Part shown: one piece after another, positions 27,844 to 28,732 of the stretch | Layout: every line of letters begins with the position of its first letter | Numbering within the stretch: the stretch's first letter is position 1 | NCBI GenBank assembly: GCA_964016885.1 | Contig: OZ024748.1 | Coordinates: forward strand, 7,502,001-7,566,000 | Reading direction: 5' to 3' | Length of the DNA: 64,000 nt | From: Eledone cirrhosa | Lineage: Eukaryota | Made by a program: the position numbers and the translations under genes | The notes under the pieces: generated by a model | Database searches by the model: none | What the model was told of the DNA's origin: nothing | The model's input: only the letters and a program-made list of their open reading frames with translations

Positions 27844-28078
27844 AATATATATATATATATACACATATATTGTTATATTTGGGGAGGGTCATATTTGCGT
27901 AATATTGCCAGAATTAATAACAGAACACACTCACTGTTTGGTTGGTTTTCACTTCTCGCTGTCTTTTATATATATATATCTGCGATCTAACTTACTCGGT
28001 CCTCAATGTTGCCATTGACTGACCGGCGGTCAAAAATAATACAGATACAATATAGACAAACACATATATATATAGTTT

Positions 28079-28118
28079 ACATAAATCTTTCGTTGCACAT
28101 CTGCAACATCGTCAGTGG
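28079..28118 (-). ncRNA. Hammerhead motif downstream of the GIY-YIG remnant
   Basis: Reverse complement: CTGACGA-t-gttgca/tgcaac-GAAA-gatt-TA; stem I is short or degenerate. Confidence 0.6.
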
Positions 28119-28395
28119 TGTTATATTCATTGTTCCTCCTGTTGTGTTGTATGTCTACGCCATTTTTTTTTTTGTTCAGTCTGTCTATATATTTATTTAT
28201 TTATTTGCTTGTTTGTTTATCTTATTTTATTTTGTCTTCTTTGCGCATGCGTTTGCGTGTGTGTATAGTGTTATGTGTGATGTGTGATGTGTGACTAGTG
28301 TGTATAGTGTTGTCTGCTGGGTGACTAGTGTGTGTTTATGTGCTTGTGTATGTATTTATTTATCTTATTTTATTTAATTTAATTTACTTATTTAT

Positions 28396-28729
28396 TTATA
28401 CTTCTCTTAGGTCAGTGTTGTTTGTTTGGGTGTTGTTGTTGTTCCACTCATTCTTTCTGTTTAGCTTTGGTCTTCTAATTTCTATTTCACTGGCCTCTCT
28501 GATTTGCCTATCTTGGGTCATTCCTATGTTTAGATATTATTCTAATTTCTATGTTGTCTATGTTACCGTCATGATGTTGTCTAGCATGTTCGTATAGTAC
28601 TGACCCGTTTTTTCGTCCTTTTAGTTCCCCCCAGTGTTGGTCTATCCTTTCACCTATGCTACGAGCTGTCTCACCTATGTATGTTGTTGTCGTGTTTCTG
28701 CAAGTACCCTCTGTACATCTTATGCTATA

Positions 28730-28732
<3 letters not shown>
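28396..28732 (-). pseudogene. Penelope-like element GIY-YIG endonuclease C-terminal remnant
   Basis: VYSIRCTEGTCRN...YIGETARSIGERIDQH...SVLYEH, then after a frameshift RQIREASEIEIRRPKLNRKNEW. These are typical PLE GIY-YIG motifs. Confidence 0.85.

What the first reader, a model, noticed from the sequence alone, without database searches (positions are those of the whole stretch)
27871..28732. Penelope GIY-YIG insertion present in only one of two duplicated segments: possible filled and empty alleles
Seen: 26815-29464 is repeated at 29665-31900 across the gap. The roughly 860-bp segment with the GIY-YIG remnant, HHR and family-A terminus is absent from the second copy, where uninterrupted (TA)n lies at about 30625-30690. 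Inference: this captures a pre-insertion site, indicating (TA)n targeting and possibly a segregating insertion. A deletion between TA tracts is an alternative explanation.
Basis: partly seen in the sequence, partly recalled or inferred. Interest (0 to 1): 0.72.

Follow-up and report, generated by a model that had tools for sequence, protein, structure and literature searches.

The report
Filled and empty Penelope insertion site
A young 0.86-kb piece of a known kind of jumping gene sits in a TA repeat in one of two near-identical stretches on either side of an assembly gap, most likely the animal's two chromosome copies laid side by side, so the other stretch likely shows the site before insertion; the feature is real but ordinary.

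Summary
Observation confirmed. 26815-29464 recurs at 29665-31901 across a 200-N gap; 436 of 436 non-repeat bases are identical. The 862-bp insert is missing from copy 2, which holds (TA)27 at 30636-30689. The insert is a 5'-truncated copy of a young Penelope-like retrotransposon with a Neptune/Nematis-type linker. It is 99.65% identical to copies with intact 1,210-aa RT-GIY-YIG ORFs, and its terminal 29-mer occurs 3,444 times in the genome. 79 of 84 sampled outer 3' ends abut (TA)n (window background 16%), so TA targeting does not rest on this locus. Four other microsatellites and the minisatellite order also differ between the copies, so they are distinct molecules, not a mis-join. Best reading (about 0.72): a heterozygous insertion with both haplotypes assembled in tandem. 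This is untested, because no reads of this individual were found. No target-site duplication can be read: the filled site has 36 TA bases against 54. The 3' ends cluster at three positions, and 24 of 25 inverted insertions pair a short with a long end. That is the published one-sided 'tail'; this scan noted it before on other DNA of this genome. New member of a known kind.

The parts
27867..28732 (-). 5'-truncated copy of a young EN+ Penelope-like element (3' part of the endonuclease, 3' UTR/pLTR, first 22-26 nt of the next ORF)
   Evidence: 99.65% identical to top genomic copies; aligned to a natural intact copy, unit positions 3295-4162
28399..28732 (-). GIY-YIG endonuclease remnant (VYSIRC...YIGET, CCHH, R/E/N positions), frameshifted by a private 2-bp deletion at 28513/28514; stop codon at 28396-28398
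   Evidence: deletion form occurs once in the genome
28082..28115 (-). Minimal type-I-like hammerhead core: CUGACGA, 6-bp stem II, GAAA, 2-bp stem III, 2-bp stem I; cleavage not shown
   Evidence: 1 of 5000 shuffles; no Rfam hit
27867..27892 (-). Short (+26) 3' terminus, the start of the next ORF; the commonest end of the family
   Evidence: 2,039 genomic ends of this class joined to TA; 48 of 84 sampled outer ends at +23 to +30
27951..27951 (.). Private CpG-type substitution
   Evidence: 0 of 90 other matches in the loci then held carry it
27866..27870 (.). Left target remnant TATAT, after (CA)2
28733..28763 (.). Right target remnant A(TA)15; the 5' junction is unique in the genome
30636..30689 (.). 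Empty site: (TA)27, after (CA)3
26815..29464 (+). Copy 1 of the duplicated segment (filled); the contig ends inside the minisatellite
29465..29664 (.). 200-N scaffold gap
29665..31901 (+). Copy 2 of the duplicated segment (empty); the contig starts inside an (AT)n tract
28964..29464 (+). 19-bp minisatellite, copy 1 (about 26 units, cut by the gap)
30882..31901 (+). 19-bp minisatellite, copy 2 (about 53 units; shares variant units with copy 1 in a different order)

Best explanation
The 862-bp segment is a 5'-truncated young copy of a (TA)n-associated Penelope-like retrotransposon, and the two gap-flanking segments are likely the two haplotypes of one locus, one filled and one empty, placed in tandem by the assembly. 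Shown: identity, youth, family size, TA flanks, and that the two copies differ at several repeat tracts. Inferred from known PLE biochemistry: the GIY-YIG domain nicks a pre-existing (TA)n; the freed 3'-OH primes reverse transcription at an internal site about 22-26 nt into the ORF of a tandem transcript; cDNA stops after about 0.86 kb and is joined to the other TA end with no inverted arm. Inferred for the assembly: the 862-bp indel plus minisatellite differences kept reads of the two haplotypes from overlapping, so both were kept and joined with a gap.
For: Gap between colinear duplicates with single-copy flank, one published sign of false heterotype duplication (PMC9516828). A real 2.85-kb tandem unit would usually be spanned by long reads (general knowledge; read type not known). 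436 of 436 non-repeat bases are identical while repeat tracts differ (86 bp, 4 bp, 2 bp, 8 bp) and the minisatellite blocks are reordered, as alleles do. The insert is very young: 1 substitution and one 2-bp deletion in 862 bp; sampled copies are on average 0.31% from an intact copy (106 of 33,877 sites); 3,444 exact termini. TA targeting: 79 of 84 outer 3' ends against 16% background; 9 of 12 simple solo copies with a visible 5' junction have TA there too. Here only 5 TA bases follow the 3' end, so the tract is not a tail added by the element.
Against: No depth, k-mer or read-pair test was possible. Two other gaps met in fetched loci have no flanking duplicate within about 9.4 kb (0 of 2), so this is not shown to be a routine artefact of this assembly. 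No SNP separates the copies in 436 bp, which fits a recent tandem duplication as well. The filled site has fewer TA bases (36) than the empty one (54) and one CA less, so copy 2 is not an exact pre-insertion sequence. The 2-bp deletion lies about 950 bp from a contig end and could be a consensus error.
Confidence: 0.72

Rival explanations
1. A real tandem duplication of about 2-3 kb, with the element inserted into one paralogue afterwards; copy 2 is then still a pre-insertion site, but not an allele.
For: No SNP in 436 bp; the segment ends in a minisatellite and starts in (AT)n, both recombination-prone; 0 of 2 other gaps show duplicates.
Against: The junction falls exactly in an unspanned gap; both contig ends lie in low-complexity DNA; many repeat-length differences but no sequenced junction.
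Confidence: 0.13
2. Copy 2 is an assembly mis-join through (TA)n, and only the filled allele exists.
For: Both copies end at a gap in low-complexity DNA; no reads were available to check.
Against: Copy 2 differs from copy 1 at four other tracts and in minisatellite block order, which a mis-join of the same allele would not create. Its site reads (CA)3(TA)27, which cannot be made by joining (CA)2 TATAT to A(TA)15.
Confidence: 0.07
3. The insertion was fixed and was later lost from one haplotype by deletion between the flanking TA tracts.
For: TA lies on both sides; the number of slippage steps needed is the same in either direction.
Against: The left tract is only 5 bp. The copy has had little time (0.12% divergence, Poisson range 0.003-0.65%). 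In a family with thousands of young copies, new insertion is far commoner than precise loss (general knowledge, recalled).
Confidence: 0.06
4. The (TA)n next to these elements is made by the element (a tail) rather than targeted.
For: Nearly all 3' ends carry TA.
Against: 9 of 12 simple solo copies have TA at the 5' junction too; flanks are often impure host-like TA; the window copy has only 5 TA bases at its 3' end while the empty copy has (TA)27.
Confidence: 0.04

Closest known systems
Neptune/Nematis-type C-terminal EN+ Penelope-like elements (Craig et al. 2021, PMC8557442; passages and a supplement search seen)
   Same: Single ORF with RT then GIY-YIG; CX2-5CxxC linker and CCHH motif; pLTR, partial tandems, inverted 5'-truncated arm; one-sided tail; hammerhead in the pLTR; the paper says the linker was proposed to mediate microsatellite bias in Neptune and that TSDs often cannot be discerned in microsatellites.
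   Different: Clade placement by RT tree was not tested. The tail here is about 45 or about 58 nt (three end classes) rather than 30-40 bp.
PAc, Poseidon element of Anolis (Frangieh et al. 2024, PMC11167929; main text read, parts 1-2 of 4)
   Same: AT-rich targets; reverse transcription starts at fixed internal sites inside the ORF start, and the tail is the stretch between them. Here the AT-rich positions +19 and +51 are rarely used (153 and 22 ends) against 2,039 at +26, so homology alone does not set the site.
   Different: PAc starts at about +111 to +118, belongs to a clade described without the linker and prefers ATT; this family ends at +26, +69/71 and +84/85 and sits in (TA)n. No biochemistry here.
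Penelope elements of Adineta vaga (Arkhipova et al. 2013, PMC3846280; passages seen)
   Same: Asn-rich ORF inserts, optional tail on one inverted pLTR, and an allelic empty site used as proof of insertion.
   Different: There an 8-bp TSD was readable in unique DNA and copies were few; here the target is (TA)n, no TSD is readable, and copies number thousands.
False heterotype duplication at scaffold gaps (PMC9516828; passages seen)
   Same: Near-identical colinear copies on one scaffold, separated by a gap.
   Different: Half depth, discordant reads and 1-copy k-mers could not be tested.

Membership tests
Canonical EN+ Penelope-like element | Single ORF with RT and C-terminal GIY-YIG endonuclease | tested here: met
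   1,209-1,210-aa ORF (from the first Met) in the six loci that hold a full unit; TDKSG and YSRYVDD conserved in alignment A1; Pfam GIY-YIG E=0.00096, below cut-off. The full ORF hit no Pfam family at E<=1; RVT_1 was hit by 3 of 12 aligned members.
Canonical EN+ Penelope-like element | Partial tandems (pLTR) and inverted 5'-truncated arm | tested here: met
   4,136-bp tandem unit and inverted arms; 26 inverted pairs among 84 outer ends
Canonical EN+ Penelope-like element | Optional tail on one end only | tested here: met
   24 of 25 inverted pairs have one short and one long end, p=4e-7 against random pairing; one pair with an internal junction was dropped
Canonical EN+ Penelope-like element | CCHH motif in the endonuclease | tested here: met
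   C-x4-C inside the GIY-YIG core and two downstream His, largely conserved in A1
Canonical EN+ Penelope-like element | Minimal hammerhead motif in the pLTR | tested here: met
   Core and stem II present, 1 of 5000 shuffles; stems I and III only 2 bp; no Rfam hit
Canonical EN+ Penelope-like element | Hammerhead self-cleavage | not testable with these tools
   Needs an in vitro assay
Canonical EN+ Penelope-like element | Retained intron in the 5' UTR | tested here: inconclusive
   Donor-like GTAAGT and GTGAGT at 27990-27997 and 27929-27936; no RNA holder listed
Canonical EN+ Penelope-like element | Target-site duplication | tested here: inconclusive
   Filled site has 36 TA bases, empty site 54; neighbouring tracts differ by 2-86 bp
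Neptune/Nematis clades | CX2-5CxxC linker between RT and EN | tested here: met
   C-x4-C-xx-C upstream of the GIY-YIG core, conserved in 11 of 12 rows of A1 apart from spacing
Neptune/Nematis clades | RT groups with reference Neptune or Nematis sequences | not tested
   No clade-labelled reference sequences came from the sequence tools; hits were unnamed or 'hypothetical'
Naiad/Chlamys | Endonuclease N-terminal to RT | tested here: not met
   EN is C-terminal
Penelope/Poseidon clade | No Zn-finger-like linker | tested here: not met
   Linker present (definition)
False heterotype duplication | Gap between the duplicated pair on one scaffold | tested here: met
   200 N at 29465-29664
False heterotype duplication | Half read depth, discordant reads, 1-copy k-mers | not testable with these tools
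   No run covering the unique flanks was found

The most novel reading that the evidence does not exclude
This currently spreading family inserts by extending both ends of a cut (TA)n from different fixed start points on its RNA (one at +26, the other at +69/71 or +84/85) and trims rather than duplicates the target. The filled/empty pair here would then be a direct record of about 20 bp of target loss with no TSD, and haplotype comparison across thousands of young copies would give the first large in vivo map of Penelope integration into microsatellites.
Probability: 0.25. Interest if true: 0.55.

Novelty: new member of a known kind. Interest (0 to 1): 0.3.

Why it matters
It shows a likely still-active Penelope-like family in an octopod-like genome, with thousands of near-identical TA-embedded copies and intact ORFs. 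It gives one direct look at a target before insertion, which indicates that the TA tract came first. It also flags 2.2 kb of likely false duplication in the assembly. The general facts (TA preference, tail, internal priming, allelic empty sites) are already published, so the value lies in the family as test material, not in this locus.

Tried and rejected
Reads: one run search gave 24 runs, none on record as RNA ('no RNA holder listed'). Contigs of three runs hold the element, but at several sites the majority letter differs from that of most copies in this genome, so they likely come from a related lineage. They did not cover the unique flank apart from one 105-bp piece at depth 2.6, so there was no depth or allele test. 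The one raw-read run laid gave 1 read. Gap control: 0 of 2 other gaps had flanking duplicates. Primer-template homology: all ends are in phase with the TA flank, and 5 of 22 ends at +84/85 carry the element's next G. This was rejected as evidence because a fixed nick at one TA bond with a start one base further gives the same sequence. TSD or target deletion: cannot be read against tract noise. Rfam: only AT-repeat miRNA artefacts. PDB by profile: only weak RT matches, best E=1.7e-4. Clade assignment by tree was not done for lack of labelled references. The supplement of PMC8557442 has four Octopus mentions, of which the two shown are Naiad rows. Earlier-findings look-ups near this place and by sequence were empty.

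Full report
1. Observation. The window has one 200-N gap at 29465-29664. The segment 26815-29464 before it recurs as 29665-31901 after it, in the same orientation. Three non-repeat blocks of 165, 96 and 175 bp are letter-for-letter the same. The first and third occur exactly twice in the 3.0-Gb genome, both here, while the flank 26100-26420 has one full-length match. Copy 1 reads (TA)8 (CA)2 TATAT - insert - A(TA)15 (CA)6 (TA)16. Copy 2 reads (TA)8 (CA)3 (TA)27 (CA)6 (TA)12. The copies also differ by 86 bp in one TA array and 4 bp in another. Their 19-bp minisatellites share variant units in a different block order.

2. What the insert is. A genome search scored 40 of 2,002 candidates and listed 41 matches at 99-100% identity. 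Fetched loci show a 4,136-bp unit in tandem and inverted arrangements with a 1,209-1,210-aa ORF in the six loci that hold a full unit. [quoted passage not shown] The nearest of 75 protein hits is an Octopus vulgaris hypothetical protein at 68%; with the AT- and microsatellite-rich DNA this points to an octopod host (inference). The window copy is the last 840 bp of the unit plus the first 22-26 nt of the next ORF, on the minus strand. It differs from the nearest copies by one CpG-type change (0 of 90 other matches) and a 2-bp deletion that shifts the endonuclease frame (0 of 72 other matches; once in the genome). Its 5' junction is unique. A hammerhead-like core lies at 28082-28115; 1 of 5000 dinucleotide shuffles gave such a core. 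Its stems I and III are only 2 bp, Rfam has no hit, and activity is not shown.

3. Family size, age and target. The terminal 29-mer occurs 3,444 times, reversed control 0. I examined 93 of the first 100 listed matches, all on one contig in positional order. Nine read on into a tandem ORF. Of 84 outer ends, 79 are followed by at least 16 of 20 alternating T/A, against 16% of window positions (p about 6e-56; the background is this window, not the genome). Of 26 loci with a seemingly unpaired end, 12 are simple solos with a visible 5' junction, and 9 of those have TA there too. Six carry a tiny inverted piece made of tail sequence only, 2 a larger inverted piece, 5 run past the fetched DNA and 1 ends at a gap. 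Forty loci differ from an intact copy at 106 of 33,877 ORF sites (0.31%; some loci are arms of one insertion). One change in 862 bp is 0.12% (0.003-0.65%). With the octopus calibration quoted in PMC13282606 (0.09 = 25 My) that is roughly 0.3 My with wide limits, young enough to segregate.

4. End structure. Outer 3' ends fall at +23 to +30 (48), +67 to +71 (12) and +81 to +85 (23); one at +125 is an internal junction. Genome-wide, 2,039 ends join TA at +26 and 1,641 copies read on into the tail. The AT-rich positions +19 and +51 give only 153 and 22. In 24 of 25 inverted insertions one arm ends short and the other long (p=4e-7; one pair dropped for the internal junction; the exception is a nested structure). 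A related subfamily, 86% identical over its ORF start, shows the same +26/+84 pair at window 33520-33929. This matches the one-sided tail of PLEs (PMC8557442; PMC3846280) and the two internal RT start sites found in vitro for PAc (PMC11167929). My counts were made before I saw it; it is not independent support.

5. Mechanism. Shown: a truncated young copy between two TA remnants, with an empty TA tract in the twin segment. Inferred from PAc and the family pattern: the endonuclease nicks (TA)n, RT is primed by the nick and starts at +22 to +26 of a tandem transcript, stops after about 0.86 kb, and the cDNA is joined to the other TA end without microhomology or an inverted arm. Whether priming uses base pairing cannot be told from sequence. 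The site shows no TSD: 36 TA bases remain against 54, within the spread of neighbouring tracts.

6. Alleles, paralogues or artefact. A gap between colinear duplicates is one of four signs of false heterotype duplication in PMC9516828; the other three need reads. The single run search listed no run that covers the locus. The runs that hold the element carry majority letters unlike most copies in this genome. The sequence argues against a mis-join, since several independent tracts and the minisatellite order differ. It argues against deletion, since the left tract is 5 bp and the copy is very young. It cannot exclude a real tandem duplication: there is no SNP in 436 bp, and 0 of 2 other gaps had such duplicates. 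Under both the allele (0.72) and the paralogue (0.13) reading, copy 2 approximates the pre-insertion site.

7. Known or new. TA preference of linker-bearing PLEs, unreadable TSDs in microsatellites, tails, inverted arms, Asn-rich inserts and an allelic empty site are all in print. Recently active Penelope families are reported in O. vulgaris (31 Penelope-like families, 336 insertions). Searches listed no paper on a filled/empty pair for a TA-targeted element of this type in a cephalopod; only listings and the passages cited were seen, and Repbase was not available. What I saw of each paper: PMC8557442 passages and a supplement term search; PMC11167929 parts 1-2 of 4; PMC13282606, PMC9516828, PMC3846280, PMC7229834 and 10.64898/2026.07.22.740005 passages; Arkhipova 2006 only as cited in PMC8557442. 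Unseen supplements of PMC11167929 and PMC13282606 could hold this family or similar end maps. Verdict: real, a new member of a known kind, interest 0.3.

Noticed in passing
window 33520-33929: Short inverted insertion of a related subfamily (86% identical over its ORF start) in (TA)n, with one arm ending at +26 and the other at +84, and a hammerhead-like core at 33731-33759 with a 4-5-bp stem I. Further pieces lie at 38944-38972 and 59237-59262.
   Followed up: partly
L049, L076, L078, L092, L097, L102: Seemingly solo copies whose 5' junction carries a 14-40-nt inverted piece of tail sequence joined to TA, as if the second target end was primed at +84 and extended only briefly.
   Followed up: partly
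L045-L047, L031-L039: Head-to-tail arrays of the unit (about 4.14 kb); in L031-L039 the full units keep an intact ORF, which suggests current source elements.
   Followed up: partly
window 28964-29464 and 30882-31901: 19-bp minisatellite with many variant units whose blocks are reordered between the two copies; usable as a variant-repeat marker for the two haplotypes.
   Followed up: partly
runs X1, X4, X5 laid on window 27871-28732: Contigs from two coded organisms hold near-identical pieces of the element (one 456-bp contig with 3 differences over 253 aligned bases); close relatives, shared samples or transfer were not told apart.
   Followed up: no
window 7721-9596, 57470-57964, 61537-62978: Open frames that resemble non-LTR retrotransposon remnants (resemblance recalled, not searched); 7859-9689 and 60717-61195 are related to each other.
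   Followed up: no
flanks of L003, L006, L012, L022, L034, L048-L050, L056, L060 and the window: Many unrelated CUGANGA...GAAA hammerhead-like motifs from other repeat families lie near these insertions.
   Followed up: no
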